Shown here: in pieces, positions 12,501 through 58,009 of the stretch
How positions within the stretch are numbered: position 1 is the first letter of the stretch
How the letters are laid out: each line of letters starts with the position of its first letter
Origin: an uncultured bacterium
GTDB lineage: Bacteria > Hydrothermota > UBA3073 > NMUJ01
Reading direction: 5' to 3'
Length of the DNA: 60,912 nucleotides
NCBI GenBank assembly: GCA_965612795.1
Contig: CBFDTI010000002.1
Location: 1-60,912 of the forward strand
Program-made: the position numbers and the translations under genes
The notes under the pieces: model-generated
The model's database searches: none
The model's input: the letters and a program-made list of their open reading frames with translations, nothing else
Told to the model about the DNA's origin: nothing

Positions 12501-12668
12501 GAAAAGTACATGCAGTATGTAGATGGTGAATGGGTTGAAGTCGACCACGATAGGATCAAGAAGATACTCGACACGAAAGCATACATCGATATGCCTAACC
12601 AAACCTATTTCACGTTCCTTAACCCAAGGAGTGTGTTCTTTGGGTTAACCATCAATTATCGTTTTTGA
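9531..12668 (+). CDS. TonB-dependent-receptor-type outer membrane barrel with an N-terminal carboxypeptidase-regulatory-like domain
   Basis: Signal peptide. GKITGRVTD..GKPLAGANI..TDTNGYYTI..PGTYTL (CarboxypepD_reg). Plug motifs (ISDVLSIQPGI, IRGSG, VDGILL, IQAGGFAPEY). C-terminal ..INYRF. RBS GGGAGGAGGG. Confidence 0.8.
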   Translation: MYKKFFILLSLIPGLLLAGTWGKITGRVTDVETGKPLAGANIIIEGTTMGAATDTNGYYTILHVPPGTYTLKAMMMGYATSTVTGVRVMIDLTTVVDFKMEPTVLPGVEITVVAKRPIIQKDVAGSQRIFTSDEFTTLPAANISDVLSIQPGITSDLSIRGSGADQVAVIVDGILLRDRRTNQPIARLPLSALKEVSIQAGGFAPEYTDLRAGVVNIVTREGHTNYYTGTFTFRIRPPAPKHFGISPYDPNAYWLRPFLDPDVCWTGTKNGAWDEYMQRQYPEFEGWIAFAERTLKDDDPTNDLTPEAAQRIFMWQYRKQGEIKKPDYNIDCGFGGPVPIIGKALGNLRFYTAFRYEQNMYLIELSRDALRDYTWMTKLTSNLSPHMKLSILGLYDVLHATSHSRVGGTSYFSSVWEVADAMDRIGFTLPWRLYTNDYWCPTSRFTYTVSAKLTHMVSQHTFYDALIKIDHRRYETGPGRYRDTTKKYEILPGYFVDEAPFGFFEDYFTSIDGNLAMGGPISTSRDSSRYTTFTARFDLVSQINPTNQIKTGLQFIYDKLDLRFGSYNAYLPEGNHWTVAKWNPYRLSLYLQDKLEYEGFIAIIGMIADYTNPNGYWYDVDPFDRTFYSEEYNPEYEPNIPKRKIDPRLTLSPRLAISHPITENAKLFFNYGHYRQAATSEALYRIRRLYNNKVEYIGDPNIPLAKTVSYEIGYDHVILGNYLLRISAYYKDITNQQDWTRYISADGKVNYYRLTAKNYEDIRGFEIEFTKMAGRWVTWNLNYEYRVNTSGYFGVKQYYENPAEQREYERRSPVEWKPRPRPRFKGYVDIHTPQDFGPKIANHNVLGDWHITFVGSWTAGWWMTWNPNNVPGIAYNVQTRDFYNVDVKIFKTFSFGGVDIRLFVDIYNLFNLKHFSWASFSDAYDFDYYMKSLHLPKEIADPLGYGNIPGNDRPGDFRDEGVEYQPMEWVPDVNNLTDPNPRVIYYDAKTEKYMQYVDGEWVEVDHDRIKKILDTKAYIDMPNQTYFTFLNPRSVFFGLTINYRF

Positions 12669-12679
12669 AGGGAGGTAGA

Positions 12680-14803: not shown

Positions 14804-14811
14804 GAGGTGAA

Positions 14812-15378
14812 ATGCGCGCTATACAGTTCAAAGCATTGCTATTTGTGGCAATTATTATATCCATCAGTTGTGAGAAATTTCGTACCGAAGAGTATCACAT
14901 GAAAGATGTTGATATACGGGCATGTGCGTATCTTACAGATAGCTTAAGTGATACAATTTATGTGAGGCCACTCACATATTTTGACACAAACTGGGTAGCC
15001 CCTTATATATACGATAACGTTGCGGAGATTATCGACACATTGGACGCACATAACATTAAGATTGAGCCATCCATGGGTTACACTATTATCACCGAAGAAG
15101 CTATAGATACAAACTACATAGTGTATAGGAATACACATGCGGGTGAAGTGATCATCTTCATCAATGACTACTTGAACGTCAATGTTATAAGCGAAGACTC
15201 TATCATAAGAGAAAAGAGTCGCGCTATACCACTCGAAACAGTTGCTGGCTGCCCGGAGATAAGGACGCGGTTCGTTTATGTGCTTGAAGAAGACGAGTAC
15301 CTTTTGGAGTTCATAAAAACTGATCAAACATTATCTGATACCTTTAATACCGTGATACTCTGGGAGGAGGCACGATGA
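14812..15378 (+). CDS. Small lipoprotein, unknown function
   Basis: Signal peptide with lipobox IISISC, RBS TAGGAGGTG, no recognisable domain. Confidence 0.5.
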   Translation: MRAIQFKALLFVAIIISISCEKFRTEEYHMKDVDIRACAYLTDSLSDTIYVRPLTYFDTNWVAPYIYDNVAEIIDTLDAHNIKIEPSMGYTIITEEAIDTNYIVYRNTHAGEVIIFINDYLNVNVISEDSIIREKSRAIPLETVAGCPEIRTRFVYVLEEDEYLLEFIKTDQTLSDTFNTVILWEEAR

Positions 15379-16352
15379 GAAAACTATATATAGTGGGTGT
15401 GATCATGATATGCTCTTTGATGGTTAAGAATGCTTACCCACAAGTGAAGCTCGCACAGACAGGGTTCCAATTCCTAAGTGTAGGTGCAGATGCGCGTGCA
15501 TGCGGTATGGGTGAAGCATTCACGACCGTTGAAGGGCAAGCTTCCGCCCTATTCTACAACCCTGCCGGTATAGCACGATTGGGTTCATCTATCGATATTG
15601 CAACAAATTACACCAAATGGATTGCGGACATCACACACTACTCGTTAAGCTTTGCATTTAAGCCGAAAGCTGGCAAGTATGGTGTATTCGGTATAAGCGT
15701 ATTATCTGTTGATTATGGTGAGATCCAAGGTACCATGGTGTGGCCTAACCCAGAGGGTTACATCGAAACAGAGGTGTTCCGGCCAGCTGCATACGCTATT
15801 GGGGTAGGTTATGCAAGAGCCCTAACAGATAAGTTTGTTGTTGGAGGGCAAATCAAACACACCGCGCAATCCTTAGGTAAGAGTGTCATACCCGATGAAG
15901 GTGTCAAGAAGAACATTGCGTCAACTTTCGCATATGACTTCGGTACTATATATCGGACAGGGTTCAAAAGCTTATCATTCGGCATGTGTGTACGTAATTT
16001 CTCACCAGAGGTGAAGTTCGAAGAGGAGGGGTTTCAACTACCGCTTACATTCAAGATTGGTATATCGATGGATCTGCTCGATATCTTTATGAGCGACCAC
16101 AAGGGTCATTCGCTGCTCGTTGCCATAGATGCTGCACATCCACGTGCATATCGTGAATATATCAACATGGGTATGGAATATAAATTTATGAATATGTTGG
16201 CGTTACGGGTTGGATACGTAACCAGCCAAGACGAGTATGGATTAACTGCGGGGTTTGGTGTGCACCAATTTGGAGTTTCAATCGACTATGCATATACACC
16301 ATTTGGTGTATTTGGTAACGTTCATAGGCTTACTCTACATATTTTGAGGTAG
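15375..16352 (+). CDS. PorV/PorQ-family outer membrane beta-barrel (T9SS cargo shuttle-like)
   Basis: Signal peptide, then FQFLSVGADARACGMGEAFTTVEG.ASALFYNPAGIA, the hallmark N-terminal motif of PorV/PorQ-type barrels. Alternating beta-strand pattern. ATGA overlap with the upstream gene. Confidence 0.65.
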   Translation: MRKLYIVGVIMICSLMVKNAYPQVKLAQTGFQFLSVGADARACGMGEAFTTVEGQASALFYNPAGIARLGSSIDIATNYTKWIADITHYSLSFAFKPKAGKYGVFGISVLSVDYGEIQGTMVWPNPEGYIETEVFRPAAYAIGVGYARALTDKFVVGGQIKHTAQSLGKSVIPDEGVKKNIASTFAYDFGTIYRTGFKSLSFGMCVRNFSPEVKFEEEGFQLPLTFKIGISMDLLDIFMSDHKGHSLLVAIDAAHPRAYREYINMGMEYKFMNMLALRVGYVTSQDEYGLTAGFGVHQFGVSIDYAYTPFGVFGNVHRLTLHILR

Positions 16353-16360
16353 GAGGGGAT

Positions 16361-17542
16361 ATGAGAAATACCATAATTGTTGGGTTGACGATCTTAACTC
16401 TATGTATTTTTGTAAGTTGTGAGAGAGAGTACCCCAGTATATGGAATCCCAATCAAGAGTTTAAACCCAACCCTATCATCACGAGTGTCGAACCGCCAGA
16501 AGGTACGTTTGCTGTCATTGGTACCGTAACAGTAAAGGGTGAGAATTTCTCACCGGTCAAGGACGAAAACTACGTATATTTTGATGGCGAAAAAGGTACA
16601 ATTCTAACCGCTAGCGATACATTACTTACGGTGAACCCACCTAACATAGCCGGTGATTCAATAAGGATAAAACTACGTGTAGAGGGTGCACTCTTGTATG
16701 CTGAATACTATCCATATAAGTTGATGTATGCGGCTGAGGAATATGGTGGGTTCGATGACTACGATGATTGTTACGGACTTGCATGTGATACAAATGAGAA
16801 CCTTTACGTATCGGTGAGAAGTCGCAAAGTTATAATGGTAACACCCGATGGTGAACAGCATGATTATGCAACAACAAGCTTTGAAAAAGCTTCCGCAATG
16901 CGAATGGGTCCAGAGGGTTATATATACTATGTCAACATCCTACCCTATGTATTCCGCATATTACCAGGTGGTGGTAGCGATGAGCTATTTGTGGTATTAC
17001 CAGGTGGTGTATACGATCTTGACTTCGACCAATACGGTAACCTATACTGTGGTGGTAACGGGCAAGCTATATATCGGGTGAAATCCGACCGTAGCTACGA
17101 GATAGCTGCTGATTATTCTGGTATAGATATAAAAGCTGTACGGGTGTTCAACGGTTATCTATATGTAGGTGGTGACTCATCCGACCATAAGTGTATCTGG
17201 CGTAACCAGATAGTATCGGAGGATTCACTCAGCACACGTGAGCTCTATTTTGACTGGTCCTCATATTTTGGTGCATATGATATATTTTCTATAACGTTTG
17301 ATATCAATGGTAACATGTATGTTGGTACTGATGCACCTGAGGCGATAATCATTGTACGTCCGGATAAAAGCTATACACCTCTATATCCAGGTGTACTTGA
17401 ACCCCAAACCTATACCCTCTGTTGGGGTAACAGAGAATACTTATATGTGAATCGGCGTAGCGATGATCCATCAAAAAAGAGGATTATAAGGATTAATATG
17501 TTAGATAAGAGGGGAGCCCCATATTATGGGCGTCAACTTTAA
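16361..17542 (+). CDS. Lipoprotein with an IPT/TIG domain plus an NHL-like beta-propeller
   Basis: Lipobox IFVSC. ITSVEPPEG..VTVKGENFSP..VYFDG..LTVNPP (IPT/TIG). Repeated blades (NENLYVS, EGYIYYV, YGNLYCG, NGYLYVG, NGNMYVG). Confidence 0.6.
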   Translation: MRNTIIVGLTILTLCIFVSCEREYPSIWNPNQEFKPNPIITSVEPPEGTFAVIGTVTVKGENFSPVKDENYVYFDGEKGTILTASDTLLTVNPPNIAGDSIRIKLRVEGALLYAEYYPYKLMYAAEEYGGFDDYDDCYGLACDTNENLYVSVRSRKVIMVTPDGEQHDYATTSFEKASAMRMGPEGYIYYVNILPYVFRILPGGGSDELFVVLPGGVYDLDFDQYGNLYCGGNGQAIYRVKSDRSYEIAADYSGIDIKAVRVFNGYLYVGGDSSDHKCIWRNQIVSEDSLSTRELYFDWSSYFGAYDIFSITFDINGNMYVGTDAPEAIIIVRPDKSYTPLYPGVLEPQTYTLCWGNREYLYVNRRSDDPSKKRIIRINMLDKRGAPYYGRQL

Positions 17543-17572
17543 TCTACATGTTTTTAGCAAAAAGGAGGTAAC

Positions 17573-18973
17573 ATGAGGTTAGTTTATTGCATGTTGGTAG
17601 GGTTAGTGGTTGCTGGTGTTGCTGCTGGTGAGTGGGTATTCGACCACGTACTATATGACTTCGAGCTACCACAAGATAACGCGTATGGTGTACACGGTGT
17701 GGTTGTGGACCCTGAGGGTAAAGTATGGATTGCACTACATGGTGCGATAACCTCTGATCCGGTTATCGATTCTGAGACAGGTGATACACTTGGCTGGTAT
17801 CGTCCTATATACATACTGGATCCAGAGACTGGTGAACATGTCGACTTTTCGCCACTTAAAATACTCGAGCTATGGGATGGTACACTCGACACTTTATGGA
17901 CAGGTAGTCCACACAATGGTAGCGGTAAGGGTATAACTCTTGATAACGATGGTAACATACTTTACTCATCATGGGCCACATTGTATCGTATTGACTATCA
18001 TACGGGGCAATGTTTGAACCGTTTCATACCGTCATCGGTTGGTTTACCCATGTCATCGATCACGGAAGCTGTACAGGATACGAATGGATTCATATATCTG
18101 AGTTACGTACTGGGGGGTGACAAACCCATAATCATACTGGATAATGATTTCAACTATATCGGTAACGCAGTCGATACAGTGGGTTACATCAACCGCTCAT
18201 TGGTGGTATCACCCGATGGTAAAGACATATGGACAGGCTCCACATGGCTGGGTATTGGTATTGTCCATTGGCATAGTGATATACCCGGTGTGCTACCATA
18301 CACGCCAGTTGATACGTTTGGTACATGGGATTCGATATATGTGGAATCTGTCTACGTTGATGGCGAATGGCATGACACCGCATATTGGGCATACGATGTA
18401 GACCTATGGCCTGAATGTCTCGATGTAGGACCTGATGGTAACTTATGGGCAGGTTGTACACAGCTGGCATGGACACAGGATTATGAAAATGCACCTATAG
18501 GTAGCCGCTGGTATGTGTTCGATATCAACACACATGAGATACTCTATACGGTTGGTATACCAATGGGTGATCCACATGCTGGTGGGGTGATGAACCCACG
18601 TGGTGCCGCATGGAGTGCCGATGGTAACATACTCTACTTGGCAGATTATGATTACAACATTGTAACCGTATGGCGTGCGGTTGGGGTTGAAGAAAAGCAT
18701 GATATCGGGTTGTTTAATCTCACCCTTAAGCCGAATCCGGCCAAATCCACCAGGGAGATAACGATAACGTTTACACTTACAAAGGAAGGGGTTGTCGATC
18801 TCAAAGTTTACGATGTAGCAGGTCGTGTGGTAAAAACACTCATCAATAAGCATATGGCACCTGGTACCCACAAGGTGCGGTTCGATGCTTCACGGTTACC
18901 ACCAGGTACGTATTTCTGTCGTATGGCGTTCGATGGCAAGGCGACCACACAGAAGATGCTACTTGTTAAGTGA
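17573..18973 (+). CDS. Secreted 6-blade-type beta-propeller protein with a T9SS C-terminal sorting domain
   Basis: Signal peptide. Blades (DPEGKVWIA, DNDGNILYS, DTNGFIYLS, SPDGKDIWTGS, GPDGNLWAG, SADGNILYLAD). CTD LKPNPAKS..VDLKVYDVAGRVVKTL..PPGTYFCRM..KMLLVK. Confidence 0.7.
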   Translation: MRLVYCMLVGLVVAGVAAGEWVFDHVLYDFELPQDNAYGVHGVVVDPEGKVWIALHGAITSDPVIDSETGDTLGWYRPIYILDPETGEHVDFSPLKILELWDGTLDTLWTGSPHNGSGKGITLDNDGNILYSSWATLYRIDYHTGQCLNRFIPSSVGLPMSSITEAVQDTNGFIYLSYVLGGDKPIIILDNDFNYIGNAVDTVGYINRSLVVSPDGKDIWTGSTWLGIGIVHWHSDIPGVLPYTPVDTFGTWDSIYVESVYVDGEWHDTAYWAYDVDLWPECLDVGPDGNLWAGCTQLAWTQDYENAPIGSRWYVFDINTHEILYTVGIPMGDPHAGGVMNPRGAAWSADGNILYLADYDYNIVTVWRAVGVEEKHDIGLFNLTLKPNPAKSTREITITFTLTKEGVVDLKVYDVAGRVVKTLINKHMAPGTHKVRFDASRLPPGTYFCRMAFDGKATTQKMLLVK

Positions 18974-18983
18974 TCGCATATCC

Positions 18984-19019
18984 AAAAGGGGGTCGGTGGC
19001 CATCGCTGACCCCCCTTTT
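18984..19019 (+). terminator. Intrinsic terminator/attenuator inside the locus
   Basis: AAAAGGGGGTC (18984-18994) pairs with GACCCCCCTTTT (19008-19019), with a GC-rich stem followed by a T-run. It sits 11 nt after the stop at 18973. Confidence 0.6.
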
Positions 19020-19048
19020 ATTATAAAATGTAAACCGGGTGAGGAGGA

Positions 19049-20296
19049 ATGATAAAAAATGTGATGGTAGGTATTGGAATATCTTTATCCACCAGCACAG
19101 CGATATTTGGCTGGGTACCGGGTGAGCTACCACGTAATTACACATTTGATGGTGTATTCGATTCATTAGTCATCATGCCACACGGTATTGTAGTCGATCG
19201 GTACAACCGCATCTGGATTGGCTGCTATGGTAGCTGCCCACTTATTGTCAAAAACCCTGATGGTACACAGGCAGCTTTCTCGCCCATCGACAGTGTGGTG
19301 ATACCCGGCGATACTGTTATATTCCTCGATAGAAACTGTCGTGGTATGGCGTTAGATCACGAAGGTAACATCCTCTATGTTAAAGGTAATATTCTCATCA
19401 AGCTCGATGTGGAGACAGGTGAAGGTATCGCCAGATGGACAGGCCCTGGCACGTTGACGAAACCTGCTGTCGATACGTTTGGTTACATCTATGTGGGTAC
19501 GGTTGTTGGTGTCACCCCGATACATGTGTTGGATCCGAGCACATTTGAATTAATATATACGATCGATTTGACACCAGCCGCCGCGTATGCAAGAGGTATA
19601 GAAGTGTCCAAGGATGGTAAAGACCTATGGACTGGTAACCTCAACCCCGGCGGCCCGGTATACCATTACCACAGCGATATACCGGGTGTACTTCCGTATG
19701 ATTTAGTGGAGGAAATCTCTATCGATGATTACGGTAACCCAATATTTCAGTTCACGATAACGACAGTCGATTGGGGGCCTGACAACACTTTATGGTGTTC
19801 ACACGAGACAGAAGATCCGCAACTACAGTCACAGAATGGGCTTGTGGTACTGAATTACAACACTATGGAGTATGCCACCTTGTATATGCCGGAGGTACCT
19901 GAGGGAAGTTACAACGGGCCACGTGGTGTCGCGTTTAGCCTATCCGGTGACACCGCATATGTGGTATCATTCAACGGCCACAGGGTGTGGCGATATGTTG
20001 TCACCACAGGTGTAGAAGAACACAACCAGGTAGCTTGTTGCTATAGGTTAGAGAATTATCCTAATCCGTTCCGTTATACCACAACGATTACATTTACATT
20101 GTTTAAGGATGGGTTTGTCGACTTGAAAGTTTACGATATCAATGGCCGTATTGTGAAGACATTGATAACCCGGCACATGACACCAGGTAGCTACGAGGTG
20201 CAGTTCGATGCAACCACATTACCTTCAGGTACGTATCTTTGTCGTATGGAAGTGGATGGTCGGGTTACAACACTTAAGATGTTGGTTGTAAAATAA
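19049..20296 (+). CDS. Paralogous beta-propeller protein with a T9SS C-terminal sorting domain
   Basis: Shares HYHSDIPGVLPY, SKDGKDLWTGN and the CTD (YPNPF..VDLKVYDINGRIVKTL..PSGTYLCRM..KMLVVK) with the upstream gene. RBS GAGGAGG. Confidence 0.7.
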   Translation: MIKNVMVGIGISLSTSTAIFGWVPGELPRNYTFDGVFDSLVIMPHGIVVDRYNRIWIGCYGSCPLIVKNPDGTQAAFSPIDSVVIPGDTVIFLDRNCRGMALDHEGNILYVKGNILIKLDVETGEGIARWTGPGTLTKPAVDTFGYIYVGTVVGVTPIHVLDPSTFELIYTIDLTPAAAYARGIEVSKDGKDLWTGNLNPGGPVYHYHSDIPGVLPYDLVEEISIDDYGNPIFQFTITTVDWGPDNTLWCSHETEDPQLQSQNGLVVLNYNTMEYATLYMPEVPEGSYNGPRGVAFSLSGDTAYVVSFNGHRVWRYVVTTGVEEHNQVACCYRLENYPNPFRYTTTITFTLFKDGFVDLKVYDINGRIVKTLITRHMTPGSYEVQFDATTLPSGTYLCRMEVDGRVTTLKMLVVK

Positions 20297-20318: not shown

Positions 20319-23300
20319 ATGGTAACACCAATAAGGACGTGGGCTGTAAGCCCTTTTCTCTTATTGTGCCAAATTTTATCCGCAGGTATTAACGAAGAGT
20401 TTCGTGCGACATGGGCAGTCACATGGGACATATACAGCCCATACGGTAACCCAGGAGCCAGCCAACGCCTATGTCGACAGGTGATGGAACGCCACAAACG
20501 TGCCAACATGAACGCTGTGTTATGGCAAGTACGGCAGAACGGTGAAGTATATTATCCATCATCGTACGAACCTTGGGGAAGATACATCGGGCATCAGGAT
20601 CCAGGCTATGACCCGCTCGCATACGCTATAGAGGAGGCACACAAACGTGGGCTTGAACTCCATGCGTGGGTTAATGTGTTCCACGTATCAGCATTCGACC
20701 CTGGGGCACCTGCTTATGAGCATCAGAATTGGATATGCAGGGACGGCTATGGACGGCCGATGACATCACACAGGTGGTTTTCGCCCGGCCTCGACTCCGT
20801 ACGAAACTATACGATAAAGGTTATAATGGAGATTGTACGTAACTACGATATAGATGGCATACACCTCGATTATGTAAGATGGAGCGAATATACAAGCACC
20901 AAAGAGGGTGAATTGCTGGCAAAGTCCATCCCCGAGGAACGTTCACTCGATGGCTTCATAACACCTGAGCTGTTGAAAGCATTACAGGAGGCACCACCCC
21001 GTAACCGTTACCTGTACGATATTGAGCACCCATGGGATACTGTGCCACCGGAGGGGTTCGAAACATGGGAGGATTGGTGGCGCTGGTCAGTCACCGAATT
21101 TGTACGTGAATTGCACGATTCCATACAGGCGGTGAAGCCATGGGTACGCCTATCAGCAGCAGTTTTGGGTAGATACAATTGGGGTAGCTGGCAAGCCTAC
21201 GGTAGGGTTTTTCAGGATGCAGCATTATGGTTTAACGAAGGTTATGTTGACCAGCTCACCCCTATGCATTACCATTGGACGACACCTGCAGAGTTTTACA
21301 ATATGCTATGTGGTGAATATCACTGTTGGGAACCATGGATCCAAGAAGGCATAGCAGCTGGCCGGCTATACACCGTGGGGCCGGGTTCGTATATCCTCGA
21401 CATGTATGGCGCGTGGGATAACCATCCCGCTATCGTGGATACATGTAGGACCATATCATGGGTGGATGGATTCCAATTCTTCAGTTACGCTACATGGTGT
21501 AGCCATGACTACTGGGATGAAGCTGGTAGCACATTCTTCAACCGTAAAACCAAGATACGTGCAACGAGGTTAATAGATAGCATACCACCGGAACCGGTGC
21601 AGATTGAACTAAATAAGATCGACTCTTTAACATATGCGATAACCGTTTTGCTGGGGTTTGTCGCCTCAGATACGAATTACTGGTTCGCTATATACAGGTC
21701 ACCTGATAGCATTATTGATGTATCGAACGACGATATCGTACACATACATTTTGGTGATAGTAGCTTCACTTACGTGGATAGTTTCGACGGTACACAGGAT
21801 TACAACGGTAAATACTACTATGCTGCTACAGTGTTTGATAGATACTGGAACGAATCCGACATATCGAATGTTGAAGTGTCCGACTCGATACCGTCGTTTG
21901 CACCTATCGTCGTGTACACGATACCTGCAGATAGTGACTCAATATCTATCGCAGATAGTATAATTGTGGGGTTCTCCAAAACCATGGATACGACGTCGTT
22001 TGATGACACCACGATAAGTATTGAACCCCATATTGGTATTGCGCAACTGCTATGGTCGAATGGTAACAAAACGCTAACAATTGTACCTGATGGATATTTC
22101 CAGTATGATACATGGTATGAACTAACCATACAGCCATCGGCAAGGGACATAAATGGTAGGGCGCTTGATGGTAACGCTGACGGTATAGAGGGTGACCCGT
22201 TTGTACTGCGGTTCAAGACGTTTGCGCGTGACGATATACCACCACATATCGTGTATACGTATCCGACCAGTGGTGAAGATAGTTTCGACATACAAGACGT
22301 AATCACGGTGGTGTTTGACGAACTCATAGACACCAATACGTTGGATACCGTAAGTGTCAGGCTATACTGTGGATGGACCATGTTACCGATAGCGTTTACA
22401 CATACGGTGATGCATGGTAAGTCAATCTTATGCATACAGCCTAAGCAACCGTTCACCCCCAACACCGACTATACGGTGTTGTTATCACATACACATGCTA
22501 TAACAGATACTGCAGGTAATCCCATGTCATCATATGTGGTGATCAACTTCCACACAGCAGATGTAACCTATACCGAGCTGGTGATGATAGAAGATTTCAC
22601 ACCGCTTGGAACATGGTGGCAACCCGAACAGAGTGGGTCAACACATGGCATCTATGCACTTAATACGGAATGGGGTTATACCGGCGAAGTTTATCCACCA
22701 GCATCTACACCAGCCCAATCCGCATACTTGCAGTATGAATGGAACGAATCCGACCCACCATGGTTGCTTAGGGAGTATCTTGCAGGTGGTGCACCACGTG
22801 AGATAATATTTGATACCACCTATGTGTTGCAATGCTATGTTTTTGGTGATTGCAGCTATAACAAGTTTAGGTTCTGTGTCGACGATAGTACCATGGATCA
22901 GTCGCAGTTTCATGAAGTTTCAAAATGGATAACCTTGGACTGGTACGGCTGGCGGTTGGTGGAGTGGCAGCTTAACGATCCCAACAGTGTCGGATACTGG
23001 ACGGATGATGTAGGTGATGGTACATTAAATCCGCCGTTGAGGTTTGATAGCTTCCAGCTAACACATGAGGTTGGTGATTCCATCAGTGGTGTGATATACA
23101 TCGATGAGCTACGGCTTGTGAGGAAAGCTCAGATAGGTGTGGAGGAACCCTCCACCACCTGTGTGACATTGGGTAACCATCCCAATCCGTTCAATACTAA
23201 AACGAGTATAGTATTCTCGTTACCCAAACCCGGTGTGGTTGAACTCACAGTGTACGATGTTACAGGCCGTGTAGTGGCTACACTTGTTAATGGGTTGATG

Positions 23301-23420
23301 GGTAAAGGGCGACACGAGGTTACCTTCCATGCACCCAATGATATGGCGGCTGGGGTGTACTTCTACTCGTTGAGGTTTGATGGCAAATTATTTACAAACA
23401 AACTACTCCTCGTGAGGTAA
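20319..23420 (+). CDS. Multidomain surface enzyme: GHL10 (YngK/YddW-DigH-like TIM barrel) + 2 SbsA-type Ig (Big_5) domains + CBM-like beta-sandwich + T9SS CTD
   Basis: Signal peptide. EFRATWAV..MNAVLWQVRQNGEVYYPSSYEPWG..GLELHAWVNVF..DGIHLDYVRW (GHL10). Two ~100-aa P..V....P repeats ending ..G..L. CTD HPNPFN..VELTVYDVTGRVVATL..AGVYFYSL..KLLLVR. Confidence 0.7.
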   Translation: MVTPIRTWAVSPFLLLCQILSAGINEEFRATWAVTWDIYSPYGNPGASQRLCRQVMERHKRANMNAVLWQVRQNGEVYYPSSYEPWGRYIGHQDPGYDPLAYAIEEAHKRGLELHAWVNVFHVSAFDPGAPAYEHQNWICRDGYGRPMTSHRWFSPGLDSVRNYTIKVIMEIVRNYDIDGIHLDYVRWSEYTSTKEGELLAKSIPEERSLDGFITPELLKALQEAPPRNRYLYDIEHPWDTVPPEGFETWEDWWRWSVTEFVRELHDSIQAVKPWVRLSAAVLGRYNWGSWQAYGRVFQDAALWFNEGYVDQLTPMHYHWTTPAEFYNMLCGEYHCWEPWIQEGIAAGRLYTVGPGSYILDMYGAWDNHPAIVDTCRTISWVDGFQFFSYATWCSHDYWDEAGSTFFNRKTKIRATRLIDSIPPEPVQIELNKIDSLTYAITVLLGFVASDTNYWFAIYRSPDSIIDVSNDDIVHIHFGDSSFTYVDSFDGTQDYNGKYYYAATVFDRYWNESDISNVEVSDSIPSFAPIVVYTIPADSDSISIADSIIVGFSKTMDTTSFDDTTISIEPHIGIAQLLWSNGNKTLTIVPDGYFQYDTWYELTIQPSARDINGRALDGNADGIEGDPFVLRFKTFARDDIPPHIVYTYPTSGEDSFDIQDVITVVFDELIDTNTLDTVSVRLYCGWTMLPIAFTHTVMHGKSILCIQPKQPFTPNTDYTVLLSHTHAITDTAGNPMSSYVVINFHTADVTYTELVMIEDFTPLGTWWQPEQSGSTHGIYALNTEWGYTGEVYPPASTPAQSAYLQYEWNESDPPWLLREYLAGGAPREIIFDTTYVLQCYVFGDCSYNKFRFCVDDSTMDQSQFHEVSKWITLDWYGWRLVEWQLNDPNSVGYWTDDVGDGTLNPPLRFDSFQLTHEVGDSISGVIYIDELRLVRKAQIGVEEPSTTCVTLGNHPNPFNTKTSIVFSLPKPGVVELTVYDVTGRVVATLVNGLMGKGRHEVTFHAPNDMAAGVYFYSLRFDGKLFTNKLLLVR
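21063..21184 (+). repeat. Near-identical nucleotide tract shared with 24135-24255 (paralog gene-conversion candidate)
   Basis: Identical runs of 26, 36 and 21 nt (acatgggaggattggtggcgctggtc; cacgattccatacaggcggtgaagccatgggtacgc; tatcagcagcagttttgggta). The flanking gene sequence is much more diverged. Confidence 0.6.
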
Positions 23421-25802
23421 GTGGTGACAATCTTAACTATTCTCTTGATTTCGTATCAACCCATGTACGAGTTGAATAACGAGGAGTTTCGTGCGGTATG
23501 GGTTATCACATGGGAGCAACTCGACCCTGTTTGGCCACACCCGGATAACAGGGATAGGATATGTGAGATACTGGATAACATAAAAGCTGCAAACATGAAC
23601 GCAGTATTGTGGCAGGTACGTCAGAACGGTACCGCATACTATAGGTCATCTTATGAGCCGTTCGGTAAATACATGTTTTACAGTGATCCAGGTTACGATC
23701 CGTTCGCGTATGCGGTTGAACAGGCGCATGCGAGGGGGTTGGAGATACATGCATGGATGAACGTGTTCGAATGTAGGGGTGCAGCGATAGGGTCACCAGC
23801 ATATGAACATCCGGAATGGGTCTGCAGGGACGAAAATGGTAACCCCATGCCTGATAGGATAGCGGCACTTTCGCCAGGATTATCGGAGGTACGAGAATAT
23901 TTGATAAATGTTGCTATGGAGATCGTAAGGAATTACGATATAGATGGGTTGCATCTCGACTATGTTCGATGGAATGAGTTTACCACCCCAGAACGTACCG
24001 AACAACTCAAACAGCTTATGAAAGAAGGGTTAACCCCAACCGATATGATGCACGAATTTGTTCATAACAAAAAGGGACGCTACCTGTACGATGTTGAACA
24101 TCCATATAAGGCAGGTGTACCCGAAGGGTTTGACACATGGGAGGATTGGTGGCGCTGGTCGGTTACCGAATTCGTACGTGTGCTACACGATTCCATACAG
24201 GCGGTGAAGCCATGGGTACGCTTATCAGCAGCAGTTTTGGGTAAATACAATTGGGATACATGGCAAGCTTATGGTAGGGTATTCCAAGATGCAGCATTGT
24301 GGTTCAATAATGGCTATGTGGATCAGTTGATGCCAATGCATTATCATTGGACCACTCCGGATGGGTTTTATGATGCATTAACTCGATGGGAACCCTCAAT
24401 CCAACCCGGTATAAACGAGGGACGGTTATACACCGTAGGGCCGGGTTCGTATAAATTTTCCTTAAATGGTGTATGGGCTAACCATCCATGGGTGATCGAA
24501 ACCTGTAGAGGGTTTACGTGGGTGGATGGGTTCCAATTCTTCAGTTACAGGTGGTGGGATGACCACCAATACTGGGTAGAGGCGAGTAAAACCTTCTTCA
24601 TGCAAAAGACGAAGATCAGGGCGATAGGCCTGATTGATAGTATACCGCCGGAACCACCAGCAATTAGTGTGAGTAAATTGGGCCCCTTAACGTATGAGAT
24701 TAAGGTGACACCACCCGATGAGATGGCAGCAAAGTGTTGGGTTGTAATTTATCGATCACCCGATAGTATTATAGATGTGGATGAAGATGAGATCGTCGAT
24801 ATATACTTTGGTGATACAACATTCGCACATGTGGAGAGGTTCGACAGTTACACAACCCAAGATAAACATTTCTATGCCGCAACAGCTATCGATAGGTACT
24901 GGAATGAATCACCGATATCAAACATAGTGCAGATCAACATAACAAAGATGATGCATTATAAACCTATTTATAAGATGACATATGATGAGATAGATAAGCT
25001 CCTGAAGGAAATAAGTAAAAAGAAATGGACAATTTCGGAGAGGATTAACTTCTACTCGGAAAGGTTTTTAGGTACTCTGTATAACTTCCAGTGTGTAGGT
25101 GATGGCCCTTACGCTATGGTTGAGAATTGGCCATTGGTGAACTTACGTGAAACTAACTGTATGGCACTATGTGAACACGTATTGGCGATGGCGATATCGG
25201 ATTGTTGGGATAATTTTTTCAACAATCTGCTCCATATACGGTACAAGGATGGTATAATCGGTATCAAAACACGTAACCACTACACGATGGCGGATTGGTT
25301 GCCCGAAAATCGTTGGCTACTTGATGACGTCACCAGACGTATAGGCGGAAAGTATACGCGATCGGTGACAAGGACGATATCACATAGAAAGTTTCTTAAA
25401 AATAAAGGTATAGAGGATATGCAATACGTGAAACCCGATCGCAAGCTTACGATAGATTATGTACCGATGGATGTGCTGTTGATGGTCGAAGACAGTGTGA
25501 AGGCTGGCGATATAGGAGCGTTAATCTATGCGAATAGGGATGACATATTTTCTGCACATATGGTGATCGTAGCAGAGAAGGGTGGTAGGAAATACATCCG
25601 TGAAGCCAGCCGCAAAAAGGGTACGATCGACACCCCTTATGAGGAATGGGTCAATACAATGAAGGCAACCAACAAATATCTTGGGATGGCTTTCATGAGG
25701 GTACGTGACGAGCTCAACAAACCCGGCAAAATCATACTACCGTGGGAGATACATAAACTGAAGGCGCGATTGGATGAAGACGGGGGTGAGCTACTTCGGT
25801 AA
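23421..25802 (+). CDS. GHL10 domain fused to a C-terminal AmiA-like (DUF1460) NlpC/P60-type N-acetylmuramoyl-L-alanine amidase-like domain; no T9SS CTD
   Basis: The N-terminal 500 aa are paralogous to 20319-23420. The C-terminus has FLGTLYNF..LVNLRETNCMALCEHVLAMA..IRYKDGII..TRNHYTMADWLPEN..GDIGALI..FSAHMVIV, matching the DUF1460 pattern as I recall it. GTG start directly after the upstream TAA, so the start is uncertain. Confidence 0.6.
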   Translation: MVTILTILLISYQPMYELNNEEFRAVWVITWEQLDPVWPHPDNRDRICEILDNIKAANMNAVLWQVRQNGTAYYRSSYEPFGKYMFYSDPGYDPFAYAVEQAHARGLEIHAWMNVFECRGAAIGSPAYEHPEWVCRDENGNPMPDRIAALSPGLSEVREYLINVAMEIVRNYDIDGLHLDYVRWNEFTTPERTEQLKQLMKEGLTPTDMMHEFVHNKKGRYLYDVEHPYKAGVPEGFDTWEDWWRWSVTEFVRVLHDSIQAVKPWVRLSAAVLGKYNWDTWQAYGRVFQDAALWFNNGYVDQLMPMHYHWTTPDGFYDALTRWEPSIQPGINEGRLYTVGPGSYKFSLNGVWANHPWVIETCRGFTWVDGFQFFSYRWWDDHQYWVEASKTFFMQKTKIRAIGLIDSIPPEPPAISVSKLGPLTYEIKVTPPDEMAAKCWVVIYRSPDSIIDVDEDEIVDIYFGDTTFAHVERFDSYTTQDKHFYAATAIDRYWNESPISNIVQINITKMMHYKPIYKMTYDEIDKLLKEISKKKWTISERINFYSERFLGTLYNFQCVGDGPYAMVENWPLVNLRETNCMALCEHVLAMAISDCWDNFFNNLLHIRYKDGIIGIKTRNHYTMADWLPENRWLLDDVTRRIGGKYTRSVTRTISHRKFLKNKGIEDMQYVKPDRKLTIDYVPMDVLLMVEDSVKAGDIGALIYANRDDIFSAHMVIVAEKGGRKYIREASRKKGTIDTPYEEWVNTMKATNKYLGMAFMRVRDELNKPGKIILPWEIHKLKARLDEDGGELLR
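24135..24255 (+). repeat. Partner copy of the near-identical tract at 21063-21184
   Basis: Same identical runs as the partner copy. Both encode WEDWWRWSVTEFVR.LHDSIQAVKPWVRLSAAVLG. Confidence 0.6.
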
Positions 25803-26754
25803 TAGGAACCCCAAATGGGTGAGACATGATATGCTCGATATAGTGGGACATAACTGTAATTTCGTCCTGCATACATTTTCGGAATTTGATAGGCTGTTCT
25901 ACAAGGATACTATGAAAGCGATCGTTGATATATCGCATGAAGTTGGGCTTGAAGTTTATGTCGATCCATGGGGGGTTGGTAACGTATTCGGTGGCGAACC
26001 GTTCTCAAAAATAGTGAACGAGTACGAGATATGTCAGGTAGATAATAAGTTCAACCCACTACCGGCAGCTTGTGTTAACAACCCTAAATTTGTCGAATTC
26101 ATGTATCGCTGGATAGAAGATGTGAAATACATCGGTGGTGATGTATTGTTCTGGGATGAGCCACATTTCTATAACCCAGATAGTGGTTGGGCATGTAGAT
26201 GTAAATACTGTCAGGAGGAGTTTAAGAGAGTATTCGGCTATGATATGCCTGAAACTTCCAATGCTGATATTCTGAAATTCAAAGAACTGAGTATAGTGAG
26301 GTTTGTGAAGCAGCTTGCAGAATATGGTAAGGGATTAGGTATGCGATCCGCTGTATGCCTGTTACCACAGGAGAGTGAGAAATCCAACGTTGACGATTGG
26401 GAAAAAATAGCAGCAATAGATAGTATCAATATCATAGGTACAGACCCCTACGAATACCATAGGACGGATTTCATCGATAGAATAAGAGGTTACGCAAATA
26501 AGATATACAATATAGCGAGTAAGTTTGCTAAGGATGGACAGCTATGGGTACAGTGTTTCTCTATAAAGGAAGGTGAGGAATGGAAAGTCAGAAAGGCGGT
26601 TGAAACCATCTATGAGGCAGGTATCAGGAACATAGGGGCATGGAGCTACGAAGGTACAAGCTACATGTCGTACGTAAGATCCGACAACCCCAAGAAGGTG
26701 TGGGAGACGTTAAAAGAAGCATATGGAAGATGCATTTCATTGGCATCCAAATAA
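25774..26754 (+). CDS. Cytoplasmic GH42-like catalytic-domain-only TIM-barrel protein
   Basis: No signal peptide. Cys100 plus C141-x-C143-xx-C146 (WACRCKYCQEEF) bracket Glu129 (FWDEP), mirroring the Zn-Cys cluster and acid/base order of GH42 beta-galactosidases. The start overlaps the upstream gene by 29 nt. Confidence 0.4.
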   Translation: MKTGVSYFGNRNPKWVRHDMLDIVGHNCNFVLHTFSEFDRLFYKDTMKAIVDISHEVGLEVYVDPWGVGNVFGGEPFSKIVNEYEICQVDNKFNPLPAACVNNPKFVEFMYRWIEDVKYIGGDVLFWDEPHFYNPDSGWACRCKYCQEEFKRVFGYDMPETSNADILKFKELSIVRFVKQLAEYGKGLGMRSAVCLLPQESEKSNVDDWEKIAAIDSINIIGTDPYEYHRTDFIDRIRGYANKIYNIASKFAKDGQLWVQCFSIKEGEEWKVRKAVETIYEAGIRNIGAWSYEGTSYMSYVRSDNPKKVWETLKEAYGRCISLASK

Positions 26755-56421: not shown

Positions 56422-57994
<1,573 letters not shown>

Positions 57995-58009
57995 TACAGG
58001 ATTTACCTA

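What the first reader, a model, noticed from the sequence alone, without database searches (positions are those of the whole stretch)
20319..25802. Tandem GHL10 enzymes, one T9SS-displayed and one fused to an AmiA-like amidase: peptidoglycan as candidate substrate
Both genes open with a GHL10 (PF02638-like, YngK/YddW) TIM barrel. As I recall, the one characterised relative is E. coli DigH/YddW, which cleaves denuded peptidoglycan glycan strands left after amidases remove the stem peptides. The second paralog lacks the CTD. Instead it carries a C-terminal domain matching DUF1460/AmiA-like NlpC/P60 amidases (..NLRETNCMALCEHVLAMA.., IRYKDG, HYTMADW, SAHMVIV). That family was characterised in Bacteroides as MurNAc-L-Ala amidases. 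An amidase that denudes glycans fused to a hydrolase for denuded glycans is mechanistically coherent. Together with the OM barrel and the surface-displayed paralog (2 Big_5 Ig domains plus a CBM-like module), this suggests a murein/necromass harvesting locus rather than a plant-glycan PUL.
Basis: partly seen in the sequence, partly recalled or inferred. Interest (0 to 1): 0.8.

Follow-up and report, generated by a model that had tools for sequence, protein, structure and literature searches.

The report
Cell-wall (peptidoglycan) harvesting enzyme pair
An uncultured WOR-3 bacterium carries two related sugar-chain-cutting enzymes, one exported to the cell surface and one fused to a peptide-stripping amidase. 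Comparison with relatives indicates they belong to a gene cluster for feeding on other bacteria's cell walls, a system that I could not find described.

Summary
Window 20319-23420 encodes signal peptide, GHL10, an FN3-like domain, two Big_5 domains, a CBM-like beta-sandwich and a T9SS C-terminal domain. Window 23421-25802 encodes a 60%-identical GHL10 paralog joined by a 9-residue linker to a full-length AmiA-like (PF07313) domain. That domain keeps Cys580 and His713; the third triad residue is Glu728, not His.

- In the nearest unfused relatives (WOR-3, Stahlbacteria), the same tandem GHL10 pair sits with NamZ, two AmiA-like genes, MurQ, LysA, NlpC/P60, PBP4, a NagK-like kinase and an L-Ala-D/L-Glu-epimerase-like gene.
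- Across phyla, the 1033-aa type is a core member of a cluster of TonB-type barrel, PorV-like protein and T9SS cargo (65% of well-flanked loci).
- In 35% of those loci it lies next to a T9SS Amidase_3 that carries the same Big_5 and CBM-like scaffold.

The fusion itself is rare: one lineage, two independent assemblies. It looks like a deletion that joined two periplasmic genes, and both halves are under purifying selection (dN/dS about 0.12).

Substrate, bond cleaved, reaction order and localisation of the fusion remain inferred. I rate it a new variant of known kinds, of moderately high interest.

The parts
20319..23420 (+). Gene 1: exported GHL10 enzyme (1033 aa) with signal peptide, GHL10 TIM barrel, FN3-like domain, two Big_5 domains, CBM-like module and T9SS type-A CTD
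   Evidence: ORF; domains. More than 1000 homologs share this architecture in KSB1, WOR-3, Marinimicrobia/Fidelibacterota, Calditrichota and Ignavibacteria.
20319..20384 (+). Gene 1 signal peptide (MVTPIRTWAVSPFLLLCQILSA)
   Evidence: Read from the translation. This is an inference; no predictor was run.
20391..21548 (+). Gene 1 GHL10 catalytic domain. The invariant Asp184 of the HLDYVRW motif is at 20868-20870.
   Evidence: Pfam PF02638, E=4e-35. Cwp19 (5oq2) matches at E=1e-27. D184 is invariant in 26 family members and aligns with the first Asp of the DD in DigH.
21561..21878 (+). Gene 1 FN3-like beta domain, shared with gene 2
   Evidence: Conserved in both paralogs and in the short GHL10 orthologs. 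The fold is inferred only.
21900..22556 (+). Gene 1, two Big_5 Ig-like domains
   Evidence: Pfam PF13205, two stretches, E=2e-25.
22566..23153 (+). Gene 1 conserved CBM-like beta-sandwich ('Cmod'). The same module occurs in T9SS Amidase_3 proteins of other phyla.
   Evidence: Many invariant Trp residues. AF2 pLDDT 87. Foldseek matches CBM11/30/4/22 and FlaA1. The L086 Amidase_3 protein, residues 319-830, aligns at 34% identity over 522 aa. 14 of 16 neighbouring Amidase_3 genes carry it.
23175..23420 (+). Gene 1 T9SS type-A C-terminal sorting domain
   Evidence: TIGR04183, 33.5 bits against a cut-off of 23. Pfam gives 21 bits, below its cut-off.
23421..25802 (+). Gene 2: GHL10 and AmiA-like fusion (793 aa). 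It lies in the same frame as gene 1, separated only by TAA. The likely start is GTG at 23421 or 23424, after a GAGG at 23414-23417.
   Evidence: The same gene is in L006 and in cluster P0001. dN/dS against L006 is 0.12.
23421..23462 (+). Gene 2 short hydrophobic N-terminus (VVTILTILLISYQP). It may be a degenerate signal peptide.
   Evidence: Unfused orthologs have clear signal peptides, for example MKKVLVFFLVFSINPLLFAG. The window version lacks a basic n-region, so its function is uncertain.
23478..24935 (+). Gene 2 GHL10 catalytic domain and FN3-like domain. Asp180 is at 23958-23960.
   Evidence: Pfam E=6e-36. It is 67-69% identical to the stand-alone 'short GHL10' of L001, L007 and P0002/P0003, which ends exactly at this point.
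24936..24962 (+). Fusion junction and linker (NITKMMHYK), which replaces the signal peptide of the ancestral AmiA-like gene
   Evidence: Comparison with the C-terminus of the L007 short GHL10 and the N-terminus of the L007 309-aa AmiA-like protein.
24963..25802 (+). Gene 2 AmiA-like (DUF1460, NlpC/P60-type) amidase domain. Cys580 is at 25158-25160, His713 at 25557-25559 and Glu728 at 25602-25604.
   Evidence: Pfam PF07313, E=7e-26. PDB matches are 2im9, 2p1g and 4h4j. Cys and His are invariant in 35 of 35 sequences; the third residue is Glu in 26 of 35. It is 60-70% identical to stand-alone ~300-aa proteins that carry a signal peptide.
9531..20296 (+). Upstream conserved cluster: TonB-type barrel (1045 aa), 712-aa protein, 188-aa protein, PorV/PorQ-family protein, TIG-domain protein, and two beta-propeller T9SS cargo proteins
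   Evidence: The same gene order is seen in L087. In 26 well-flanked homologous loci these genes occur in 62-77%.
25774..26754 (+). Downstream co-operonic gene (326 aa). It overlaps gene 2 by 29 nt. It is a cytoplasmic GH42/GH5-like TIM barrel with WDEPHF and CxCxxC motifs.
   Evidence: No Pfam or PDB sequence hit. AF2 pLDDT 92, with Foldseek matches to GH5_18, GH42 and GH164. A 65%-identical homolog lies in the L007 PG locus beside a NagK-like kinase; elsewhere homologs sit beside a NagK-like kinase or NagA.

Best explanation
The two genes are the glycan-cleaving core of a peptidoglycan (PG) harvesting locus in a WOR-3 bacterium.

Proposed steps:
1. Gene 1 is exported by the T9SS to the cell surface or the medium. 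It binds foreign murein through its Big_5 and CBM-like scaffold and cuts the GlcNAc-MurNAc backbone with its GHL10 barrel.
2. Fragments enter the periplasm through the co-encoded TonB-type barrel.
3. Gene 2 finishes the job in the periplasm. Its AmiA-like Cys-His-Glu amidase removes stem peptides from MurNAc. Its GHL10 domain shortens the glycan. The two activities are tethered by a 9-residue linker.
4. Sugars and peptides then pass to cytoplasmic amino-sugar enzymes, including the downstream 326-aa GH42-like protein.

Origin of the fusion: a deletion that joined two neighbouring periplasmic genes of an ancestral locus of the kind still seen in WOR-3 UBA3073.

What is shown: the domain content, the catalytic Cys and His, the orthology to unfused genes, the gene neighbourhoods and purifying selection.

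What is inferred: PG as the substrate, which bond is cut, hydrolase versus lytic transglycosylase chemistry, whether the amidase or GHL10 acts first, and periplasmic localisation of the fusion.
For: Family precedent:
- Cwp19 (GHL10) is a PG lytic transglycosylase (PMC6016235).
- DigH is a hydrolase specific for denuded glycan (PMC12288456).
- AmiA of B. uniformis is a MurNAc-L-Ala amidase acting on anhydro-muropeptides (PMC4600125).

Context in close relatives:
- L007 (WOR-3 UBA3073) gene order: short GHL10 (68% id), AmiA-like, lipoprotein, SSF, CTD protein, NamZ, AmiA-like (68% id, ortholog of the fused domain), GNAT, 326-aa homolog (65%), NagK-like kinase, Amidase_3, PBP4; then, on the opposite strand, DUF218 and an L-Ala-D/L-Glu-epimerase-like gene.
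- L088 has the same core.
- L001 (Stahlbacteria) adds a MurQ equivalog (376 bits against a cut-off of 302), a LysA equivalog, NlpC/P60 and a NagX-like gene.

Context across phyla, 74 non-redundant loci:
- The TBDT/PorV-like/TIG cluster occurs in about 65% of loci with at least 8 kb of flank on both sides.
- Amidase_3 occurs in 35% of those loci, against 5% in a 1.05-Mb comparison set that is itself drawn from AmiA-like loci. 14 of 16 of these amidases share the CBM-like module.
- NamZ occurs in 12% of all 74 loci.

Export signals are present on the unfused GHL10, AmiA-like and NamZ orthologs. Other AmiA-like fusions pair the domain with PG glycan or amidase domains: 3D (MltA-type) and Amidase_2. 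dN/dS is 0.11-0.13 for both halves.
Against: - No enzyme of this GHL10 subfamily has been assayed. It is only 24% identical to DigH and has LDY where DigH and Cwp19 have DDY.
- One GHL10 protein is reported to act on starch (PMC9967864).
- The window itself lacks NamZ, MurQ, Amidase_3, NagX and LysA. It has instead a fucose-isomerase-like gene with no counterpart in the related loci.
- Among AmiA-like loci in general, GHL10 lies within 10 kb in only 2 of 80.
- The fusion's N-terminus is a weak signal peptide.
- The AmiA-like clade is remote from the characterised enzyme (E=2e-6 to 4h4j) and has Glu in place of the third His.
Confidence: 0.62

Rival explanations
1. The GHL10 domains act on a non-murein glycan, such as an alpha-glucan, an exopolysaccharide or another amino-sugar polymer. 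The amidase domain was attached by an accidental deletion and has no functional coupling to them.
For: DogH, a GHL10 protein, is reported to release maltose from starch. The subfamily is divergent, with 24% identity to DigH and LDY instead of DDY. The window lacks NamZ and MurQ and elsewhere carries unrelated glycan genes (GH63-like, GH130, GT4). The Cwp19 structural paper noted that variable loops in GHL10 could allow a range of substrates.
Against: Two non-homologous MurNAc-L-Ala amidase families (AmiA-like, Amidase_3) and the MurNAc-specific NamZ are recurrent neighbours. The Amidase_3 shares the CBM-like module with the GHL10 protein. MurQ, LysA, PBP4 and NlpC/P60 are in the orthologous loci. 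Both fusion halves are under equal purifying selection.
Confidence: 0.13
2. The enzymes remodel the cell's own wall. This would be a DigH-like division or turnover function plus recycling, not harvesting of foreign murein.
For: DigH and the AmiA/YkfC pathway are described as acting on the cell's own wall in turnover or recycling. The organism makes its own PG: a MurA equivalog lies at 54273-55520. The fusion has no CTD and would meet its own sacculus in the periplasm.
Against: Gene 1 carries a T9SS CTD and a CBM-like module, so it acts outside the outer membrane, where the cell's own PG is absent. The genes form one co-directional run with a TonB-type importer and T9SS cargo. Relatives add catabolic genes, LysA and a NagK-like kinase.
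Confidence: 0.08
3. The surface enzymes are primarily bacteriolytic weapons that lyse neighbours. Nutrition is secondary.
For: A T9SS-exported glycan cleaver, paired in other phyla with a T9SS amidase, is the composition of a lytic cocktail. Cwp19 causes autolysis.
Against: There is tight linkage to an uptake barrel and, in relatives, to complete downstream catabolism. No immunity gene is evident. This rival is compatible with the best explanation rather than exclusive of it.
Confidence: 0.1
4. The fusion is a tolerated by-product of gene loss. The lineage deleted NamZ, SSF and one AmiA-like paralog. The chimera keeps each activity but gains nothing from tethering, or it is mislocalised because its signal peptide decayed.
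For: Relative to L007 and L088, five genes between the short GHL10 and the 309-aa AmiA-like gene are missing. The N-terminus lacks a basic region. The fusion is confined to one lineage.
Against: dN/dS is about 0.12 in both halves and in the linker region, with dS about 0.2. Analogous fusions of AmiA-like domains to glycan-cleaving 3D domains exist elsewhere.
Confidence: 0.15

Closest known systems
E. coli DigH (YddW), a divisome-localised GHL10 glycosyl hydrolase specific for denuded PG glycans
   Same: Same Pfam family (PF02638). Alignable over the barrel, with the invariant Asp of the beta4 motif conserved. DigH works downstream of amidases.
   Different: Only 24% identity, and LDY instead of DDY. 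DigH is a periplasmic protein acting on the cell's own septal PG. Gene 1 here is T9SS-exported with Big_5 and CBM-like modules, and gene 2 is covalently fused to an amidase.
Clostridioides difficile Cwp19 (PDB 5oq2), a GHL10 lytic transglycosylase of the S-layer
   Same: It is the best solved-structure match for both paralogs (E about 1e-28). It acts on PG from outside the membrane and is anchored by accessory wall-binding modules.
   Different: Cwp19 uses CWB2 repeats and acts on the cell's own wall in autolysis. The match covers mainly the N-terminal half of the barrel. The window subfamily has a ~50-residue insertion after beta4 and lacks one Asp of the DDY motif.
Bacteroides AmiA (DUF1460; PDB 4h4j, 4q5k) and the BT1087 alpha/beta-hydrolase-AmiA fusion
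   Same: Same family (PF07313) and same catalytic Cys and His. AmiA is a periplasmic MurNAc-L-Ala amidase. In BT1087 it is already known as a C-terminal domain fused to another PG-processing domain.
   Different: The relationship is remote (E=2e-6). The triad is Cys-His-Glu rather than Cys-His-His. The fusion partner here is a glycan-cleaving GHL10 domain, an architecture seen only in this lineage. Specificity for anhydro-MurNAc is untested.
Tannerella forsythia exogenous-PG salvage pathway and the B. subtilis namZ-amiE-nagZ-murQRP operon
   Same: The logic is the same: strip the peptides, process peptide-free glycans with NamZ in the periplasm or wall, import, then MurK/MurQ. The T. forsythia model explicitly lacks an identified amidase and endo-glycanase. 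Relatives of the window locus contain NamZ, MurQ and a NagK-like kinase.
   Different: Here the endo-acting step is assigned to GHL10 enzymes. Uptake is by a non-SusC/D TonB-type barrel cluster with T9SS cargo. The organism has MurA, so it is not a MurNAc auxotroph.
Bacteroidota polysaccharide utilisation loci with T9SS-secreted enzymes (from my own knowledge; not checked here)
   Same: A surface or secreted depolymerase, a TonB-dependent importer and periplasmic finishing enzymes encoded together.
   Different: No SusD-like gene was detected by Pfam anywhere in the cluster. A PorV-like barrel and propeller cargo proteins are part of the cluster. The target is murein.

Membership tests
GHL10 (PF02638, YngK/YddW/Cwp19) | Match to the family HMM above the curated cut-off | tested here: met
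   121.8 and 124.7 bits against a cut-off of 27.9.
GHL10 (PF02638, YngK/YddW/Cwp19) | Sequence relationship to the solved GHL10 TIM barrel (Cwp19, 5oq2) | tested here: met
   E=3e-28 and 1e-27, mainly over the N-terminal half of the barrel.
GHL10 (PF02638, YngK/YddW/Cwp19) | Beta4 motif F-D-D-Y with the proposed catalytic Asp196 of Cwp19 | tested here: inconclusive
   The window family has H-L-D-Y: one invariant Asp followed by Tyr. Whether that Asp equals D195 or D196 depends on where a one-residue gap is placed.
GHL10 (PF02638, YngK/YddW/Cwp19) | Cleavage of the PG glycan backbone (lytic transglycosylase or hydrolase) | not testable with these tools
   Only gene context supports it.
AmiA-like / DUF1460 (PF07313) NlpC/P60-type amidase | Near full-length match to the family HMM above the cut-off | tested here: met
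   91.3 bits against 27, covering profile positions 3-200 of 202.
AmiA-like / DUF1460 (PF07313) NlpC/P60-type amidase | Catalytic Cys and His | tested here: met
   C580 and H713 align with the Cys and His of 4h4j and 2p1g, and are invariant in 35 of 35 homologs.
AmiA-like / DUF1460 (PF07313) NlpC/P60-type amidase | Third triad residue His (the Cys-His-His triad described for DUF1460, PMC10318531) | tested here: not met
   Glu728 occupies that position. Across the alignment it is Glu in 26 of 35, His in 4 and Asn in 4. A polar substitute is usual in papain-like folds, so activity is not excluded.
AmiA-like / DUF1460 (PF07313) NlpC/P60-type amidase | [quoted passage not shown] | not testable with these tools
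   The primary paper (PMC4255150) could not be retrieved. The specificity is quoted from PMC4600125.
T9SS type-A cargo | C-terminal sorting domain at the extreme C-terminus | tested here: met
   TIGR04183, 33.5 bits against a cut-off of 23, residues 955-1030 of 1033. Pfam PF18962 gives only 21 bits against 27.
T9SS type-A cargo | T9SS components encoded by the organism | tested here: inconclusive
   A PorV/PorQ-family protein lies in the same cluster (NF033709, 210 bits against 90). The core genes porK, porL, porM, porN and sov were not seen in this window.
Canonical SusC/SusD polysaccharide utilisation locus | SusD-like lipoprotein next to the TonB-dependent transporter | tested here: not met
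   The 712-aa protein after the barrel has no Pfam hit, and no SusD family was found among the cluster ORFs.
DigH-type enzyme specific for denuded glycan | Preference for peptide-free glycan strands | not testable with these tools
   This is an inference from co-occurrence with amidases and with NamZ.

The most novel reading that the evidence does not exclude
The pair is a window onto an undescribed, widely conserved peptidoglycan-utilisation system of uncultured FCB-group phyla (WOR-3, Stahlbacteria, KSB1, Marinimicrobia/Fidelibacterota, Calditrichota, Ignavibacteria).

Its proposed components:
- A non-SusC/D TonB-type barrel cluster with a PorV-like protein and T9SS cargo.
- A T9SS-displayed GHL10 endo-enzyme.
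- Often a T9SS-displayed Amidase_3. Both enzymes would be targeted to murein by a shared, previously unclassified CBM-like module.
- Periplasmic finishing enzymes specific for denuded or small fragments (short GHL10, AmiA-like, NamZ) that spare the cell's own wall.

The WOR-3 fusion would then be a natural bifunctional 'muropeptide-finishing' enzyme.
Probability: 0.45. Interest if true: 0.78.

Novelty: new variant of a known kind. Interest (0 to 1): 0.62.

Why it matters
Peptidoglycan is a large and relatively recalcitrant pool of microbial necromass. Which organisms and enzymes degrade it, especially in anoxic and hydrothermal sediments, is poorly known. Enrichments on PG select uncultured Bacteroidetes, WWE1 and other groups, with no known mechanism (PMC7511781).

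If the reading is right, four things follow.
1. It gives a concrete, testable enzyme set for extracellular murein depolymerisation in several candidate phyla.
2. It assigns a physiological role to a large, highly conserved GHL10 subfamily.
3. It defines a candidate murein-binding module.
4. It supplies the endo-glycanase and amidase steps that are missing from the Tannerella-type salvage model.

The fusion is a Rosetta-stone link between GHL10 and AmiA-like enzymes. It is also a compact candidate tool enzyme for producing defined muropeptide or denuded-glycan products.

The only cultured WOR-3 isolate grows on yeast extract alone (PMC12285271). Knowing a polymer these bacteria are equipped to use could help cultivation.

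Tried and rejected
1. General GHL10/AmiA-like linkage. Among 80 genome loci holding close AmiA-like homologs, only 2 have GHL10 within 10 kb: the same fusion, and WOR-3 UBA3073. The linkage is therefore specific to WOR-3 and Stahlbacteria, not universal.
2. PG genes inside the window. tblastn for NamZ, MurQ, Amidase_3, NagX and LysA found none.
3. Homology between the window's 326-aa protein and the 331-aa gene of L001. None.
4. Glu190 as a universal GHL10 catalytic acid. It is invariant in the subfamily and present in DigH, but absent in Cwp19 (FYPG). Rejected.
5. Pseudogene or decaying chimera. Rejected by dN/dS of about 0.12 in both halves.
6. Read-through of the single in-frame TAA between the two ORFs. 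Rejected because a T9SS CTD must be C-terminal and relatives have an intergenic gap.
7. Other GHL10 plus PF07313 fusions.
   - The word-indexed search lists only P0001.
   - In the exhaustive phmmer over 1.84 billion representatives, no listed hit matches both halves in its best stretch. Fusions hidden inside 50%-identity clusters cannot be excluded.
   - P0001 was unexpectedly missing from the domain-only search, so that index is not exhaustive.
8. Literature.
   - 'PF02638' returned no papers, and 'peptidoglycan utilization' with TonB-dependent and NamZ returned none.
   - Searches on YddW/UPF0748/COG1649, NamZ with Bacteroidota, necromass terms and WOR-3 gave no description of this cluster.
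   - The primary DUF1460 paper (PMC4255150) is not held.
9. PDB sequence searches for the 326-aa and 472-aa proteins gave nothing useful.

Full report
**Observation**

The window holds two abutting + strand ORFs, 20319..23420 (1033 aa) and 23421..25802 (793 aa). They lie in the same frame and are separated only by TAA. GTG GTG follows the stop, and a GAGG lies just upstream.

ORF1 hits in Pfam:
- GHL10, E=4e-35.
- Two Big_5 domains.
- A C-terminal Por_Secre_tail. This passes NCBIfam TIGR04183 (33.5 bits against 23) but not Pfam's own cut-off.

ORF2 hits in Pfam:
- GHL10, E=6e-36.
- AmiA-like PF07313 over profile positions 3-200 of 202, E=7e-26.

The two GHL10 regions, each with a following ~100-aa beta domain, are 60% identical over 498 aa. 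The best solved relative of both is the C. difficile Cwp19 GHL10 domain, 5oq2. The C-terminal domain of ORF2 matches the DUF1460 structures 2im9, 2p1g and 4h4j.

The region of ORF1 between Big_5 and the CTD (residues ~745-950) is very conserved and rich in invariant Trp. It models confidently as a beta-sandwich (pLDDT 87). It resembles CBM11, CBM30, CBM4 and CBM22 and the spirochaete FlaA1 sheath protein at TM about 0.55-0.63.

**Is the fusion real, and how rare is it?**

An independent MAG, candidate division WOR-3 AUK063 (L006), has the same 415, 1033 and 793-aa ORFs. A 95%-identical 792-aa protein cluster with 22 member sequences exists in ENA assemblies (P0001).

Among the 120 best of 1126 homologs of the full fusion, only P0001 has both domains. 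All the others are ~1030-aa proteins with GHL10, Big_5 and a CTD, or shorter GHL10-only proteins, many on short contigs. They come from KSB1, WOR-3, Marinimicrobia/Fidelibacterota, Calditrichota, Ignavibacteria and Stahlbacteria.

The 120 best homologs of the amidase part are all stand-alone ~300-aa PF07313 proteins at 57-70% identity.

An exhaustive phmmer search of 1.84 billion cluster representatives listed hits to residues 4-506 or to residues 506-781. No listed hit matched both halves in its best stretch.

dN/dS between the window and L006 is 0.11 for the GHL10 half and 0.13 for the amidase half. Neighbouring genes give the same values, at dS about 0.2. Both halves are therefore maintained by selection.

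**Origin of the fusion**

The N-terminal 505 residues are 67-69% identical to a stand-alone 'short GHL10' of ~535 aa. That protein has a signal peptide and no Big_5 or CTD, and it ends exactly where the fusion's linker begins.

The C-terminal part is the ortholog (68% identity) of a 309-aa AmiA-like protein that carries a signal peptide. It is only 31% identical to a second, 346-aa AmiA-like paralog.

In the closest unfused relative, WOR-3 UBA3073 (L007), the gene order is as follows:
- [GHL10-CTD] > short GHL10 > AmiA-like 346 (lipoprotein) > 338-aa lipoprotein > SSF symporter > CTD protein (66% identical to the window's 712-aa protein) > NamZ > AmiA-like 309 > GNAT > homolog of the window's 326-aa protein (65%) > NagK-like BadF/BcrA-type kinase > Amidase_3 > PBP4 equivalog.
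- Then, on the opposite strand: DUF218 and an L-Ala-D/L-Glu-epimerase-like gene.

The window arrangement (short GHL10 joined to AmiA 309, then the 326-aa gene) is what a deletion of the intervening genes would give. The amidase's signal peptide is replaced by the 9-residue linker NITKMMHYK.

**What the context says about function**

L088 (WOR-3) repeats the L007 core.

L001 (Stahlbacteria) has the same tandem pair, GHL10-CTD plus short GHL10. It is followed by a NagX-like gene, SSF, NamZ, AmiA-like, a LysA equivalog (472 bits against a cut-off of 298), SH3-NlpC/P60 and an amidohydrolase. A MurQ equivalog (376 bits against 302) and a third GHL10 follow.

In Calditrichota (L004), the AmiA-like ortholog sits between two M14 peptidases. 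It lies next to a gene pair of the AmgK type (APH family) and MurU type (NTP_transferase family).

I then collected 80 metagenome loci of the 1033-aa type and mapped neighbours by tblastn. Among 74 non-redundant loci, 26 have at least 8 kb of flank on both sides. In those 26:

| Neighbour | Share of the 26 loci |
|---|---|
| TonB-type barrel | 65% |
| 712-aa protein | 62% |
| PorV-like protein | 77% |
| TIG protein | 65% |
| Amidase_3 | 35% |
| Second GHL10 | 19% |

- The first four are the same cluster as window 9531-20296.
- NamZ occurs in 12% of all 74 loci.
- 14 of the 16 Amidase_3 genes carry the same CBM-like module. The L086 example (Amidase_3, CarboxypepD_reg, two Big_5, CTD) aligns with ORF1 residues ~526-1033 at 34% identity over 522 aa.
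- In a 1.05-Mb comparison set from the same phyla, Amidase_3 appears in 4 of 80 loci. That set consists of AmiA-like loci and is not neutral.

Two non-homologous MurNAc-L-Ala amidase families and the MurNAc-specific exo-muramidase NamZ are thus recurrent partners of this GHL10 subfamily. NamZ needs peptide-free glycans. One of the amidases shares the substrate-targeting scaffold of the GHL10 protein. This is the strongest argument that the substrate is murein.

**Catalytic residues**

In the amidase domain, Cys580 (RETNC) and His713 (SAHM) align with the catalytic Cys and His of 4h4j and 2p1g. Both are invariant in 35 of 35 homologs.

The third residue, His in the Cys-His-His triad described for DUF1460 (PMC10318531), is Glu728 here. 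It is Glu in 26 of 35 relatives, with His or Asn in the more distant ones.

In GHL10, the beta4 motif is DG(I/L)HLDYVRWxE, with an invariant Asp (D184 in ORF1, D180 in ORF2). DigH and Cwp19 have FDDYFY at this position. Sequence alone cannot say whether the retained Asp corresponds to Cwp19 D195 or to the proposed catalytic D196. The subfamily is 24% identical to DigH.

**Localisation**

ORF1 has a plausible signal peptide and a CTD, so it acts outside the outer membrane.

The unfused orthologs of both halves of ORF2, and NamZ, have signal peptides or lipoboxes. The GNAT, the 326-aa homolog and the NagK-like kinase do not.

ORF2's own N-terminus (M/V-TILTILLISYQP) is hydrophobic but short and uncharged. 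Export is probable by descent but not shown.

**Mechanism proposed**

1. The T9SS-exported GHL10 binds and nicks foreign murein. In many phyla a T9SS Amidase_3 sharing the same scaffold would do so alongside it.
2. Fragments enter through the TonB-type barrel.
3. In the periplasm, the short GHL10 (here fused), the AmiA-like amidase and, in relatives, NamZ reduce them to sugars and peptides. These enzymes plausibly accept only small or peptide-free fragments, which would spare the cell's own sacculus. The same rationale has been proposed for T. forsythia.
4. Cytoplasmic enzymes finish the work.

Two reaction orders are possible for the fusion.
- Amidase first, then a DigH-like hydrolase acting on the denuded glycan.
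- GHL10 first, acting as a Cwp19-like lytic transglycosylase that produces anhydro-muropeptides, followed by an AmiA-like amidase, as for the Bacteroides enzyme.

Fusions of AmiA-like domains to the MltA-type 3D domain (P0292, P0307) favour the second order by analogy. Neither order is tested.

**The downstream gene**

The 326-aa protein overlaps ORF2 by 29 nt. It belongs to a large unannotated family with invariant WDEPHF and CxCxxC motifs.

It models at pLDDT 92 as a TIM barrel closest to GH5_18, GH42 and GH164 glycosidases.

Its homologs sit next to a NagK-like kinase (L007, L170), or next to a NagA equivalog with GH94 and ROK genes (L171). It is therefore probably a cytoplasmic amino-sugar glycosidase. 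I did not find the 472-aa fucose-isomerase-like gene that follows in any related locus by tblastn.

**Weaknesses**

- Nothing here is biochemical.
- The window itself lacks NamZ, MurQ and Amidase_3.
- One GHL10 protein is claimed to degrade starch.
- The AmiA-like clade is remote from the characterised enzyme.
- PG-specific neighbours are seen in about a third of the well-flanked loci, not in all.
- The organism has MurA, so the system serves nutrition, salvage or antagonism rather than auxotrophy.

**Novelty**

Both catalytic families are known, and the idea that GHL10 acts on PG is published. Three things appear to be new.
- The GHL10 and AmiA-like fusion.
- The assignment of this large T9SS-linked GHL10 subfamily to extracellular murein degradation.
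- The CBM-like module shared with T9SS amidases.

None of my literature searches found a description of the cluster.

It is a new variant of known kinds, with interest 0.62.

Noticed in passing
window 25774-26754 (+); homologs at L007:11984-12949, L170:8001-9008 and L171:8001-8993: A 326-aa protein with no Pfam or PDB sequence hit belongs to a family of more than 1000 unannotated proteins across many phyla. It has invariant WDEPHF and CxCxxC motifs. The model is a GH42/GH5_18-like TIM barrel (pLDDT 92). Homologs pair with a NagK-like kinase or with NagA, so it may be an undescribed cytoplasmic amino-sugar glycosidase.
   Followed up: partly
L086:7317-9809, and 15 further loci among L092-L165: T9SS Amidase_3 proteins in several phyla carry the same Big_5 x2, CBM-like module and CTD scaffold as the GHL10 protein, and they lie next to it. 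This would be a matched pair of surface amidase and surface glycanase.
   Followed up: partly
window 9531-20296 (+); L087:1-9763: A conserved cluster spans phyla: TonB-type barrel, ~700-aa protein, ~190-aa protein, PorV/PorQ-family barrel, TIG-domain protein and two beta-propeller CTD cargo proteins. No SusD-like gene is present. The role of the propeller proteins is unknown.
   Followed up: partly
window 12665-14803 (+): The 712-aa protein after the barrel has no Pfam hit but ends in a CTD-like sequence (VVPNPYN...). Its 66%-identical homolog in L007 (6456-8540) does hit Por_Secre_tail. It may be the surface binding protein of the system.
   Followed up: no
window 23418-23426: The two GHL10 ORFs are in the same reading frame. 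They are separated by a single TAA followed by GTG GTG, with a GAGG inside the end of the upstream gene. There is no intergenic spacer, unlike in relatives (112-344 nt).
   Followed up: partly
P0292, P0307, P0261: The AmiA-like domain also occurs fused to a 3D domain (MltA-type lytic transglycosylase fold) and to Amidase_2.
   Followed up: partly
window 26783-28201 (+): A 472-aa protein has weak similarity to the C-terminus of L-fucose isomerase and to sulfoquinovose isomerase SftI. tblastn found no counterpart in the related loci searched. It is unexplained in a PG locus.
   Followed up: no
window 56422-60912 (+): An rRNA operon: 16S, two tRNAs, then 23S cut off by the window end. Its G+C is 57-59% against about 44% for the rest of the window, a contrast typical of thermophiles. 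The closest MAG is from candidate division WOR-3.
   Followed up: no
window 54273-55520 (+): A MurA equivalog (492 bits against a cut-off of 393). The organism makes its own MurNAc, so it is not a Tannerella-like auxotroph.
   Followed up: yes
window 5909-7588 (-), 40634-42908 (+), 36102-38798 (-): Other glycan-related genes in the window: a GH63/MGH1-like hydrolase, a GT4 plus GH130 pair, and a second TonB-dependent receptor. They are not evidently linked to the GHL10 cluster.
   Followed up: no
L004:5860-13346 (Calditrichota GD2): The AmiA-like ortholog is flanked by two M14 peptidases, one with MAM-like and CTD domains. An APH-family (AmgK-type) and NTP_transferase-family (MurU-type) gene pair lies nearby. 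This is a different PG-salvage context for the same amidase clade.
   Followed up: partly
model m1eb0113412d3 (window 22551-23168): The best PDB fold match of the CBM-like module is the spirochaete flagellar sheath protein FlaA1 (9cyn), slightly ahead of CBM11. The meaning of this is unknown.
   Followed up: no
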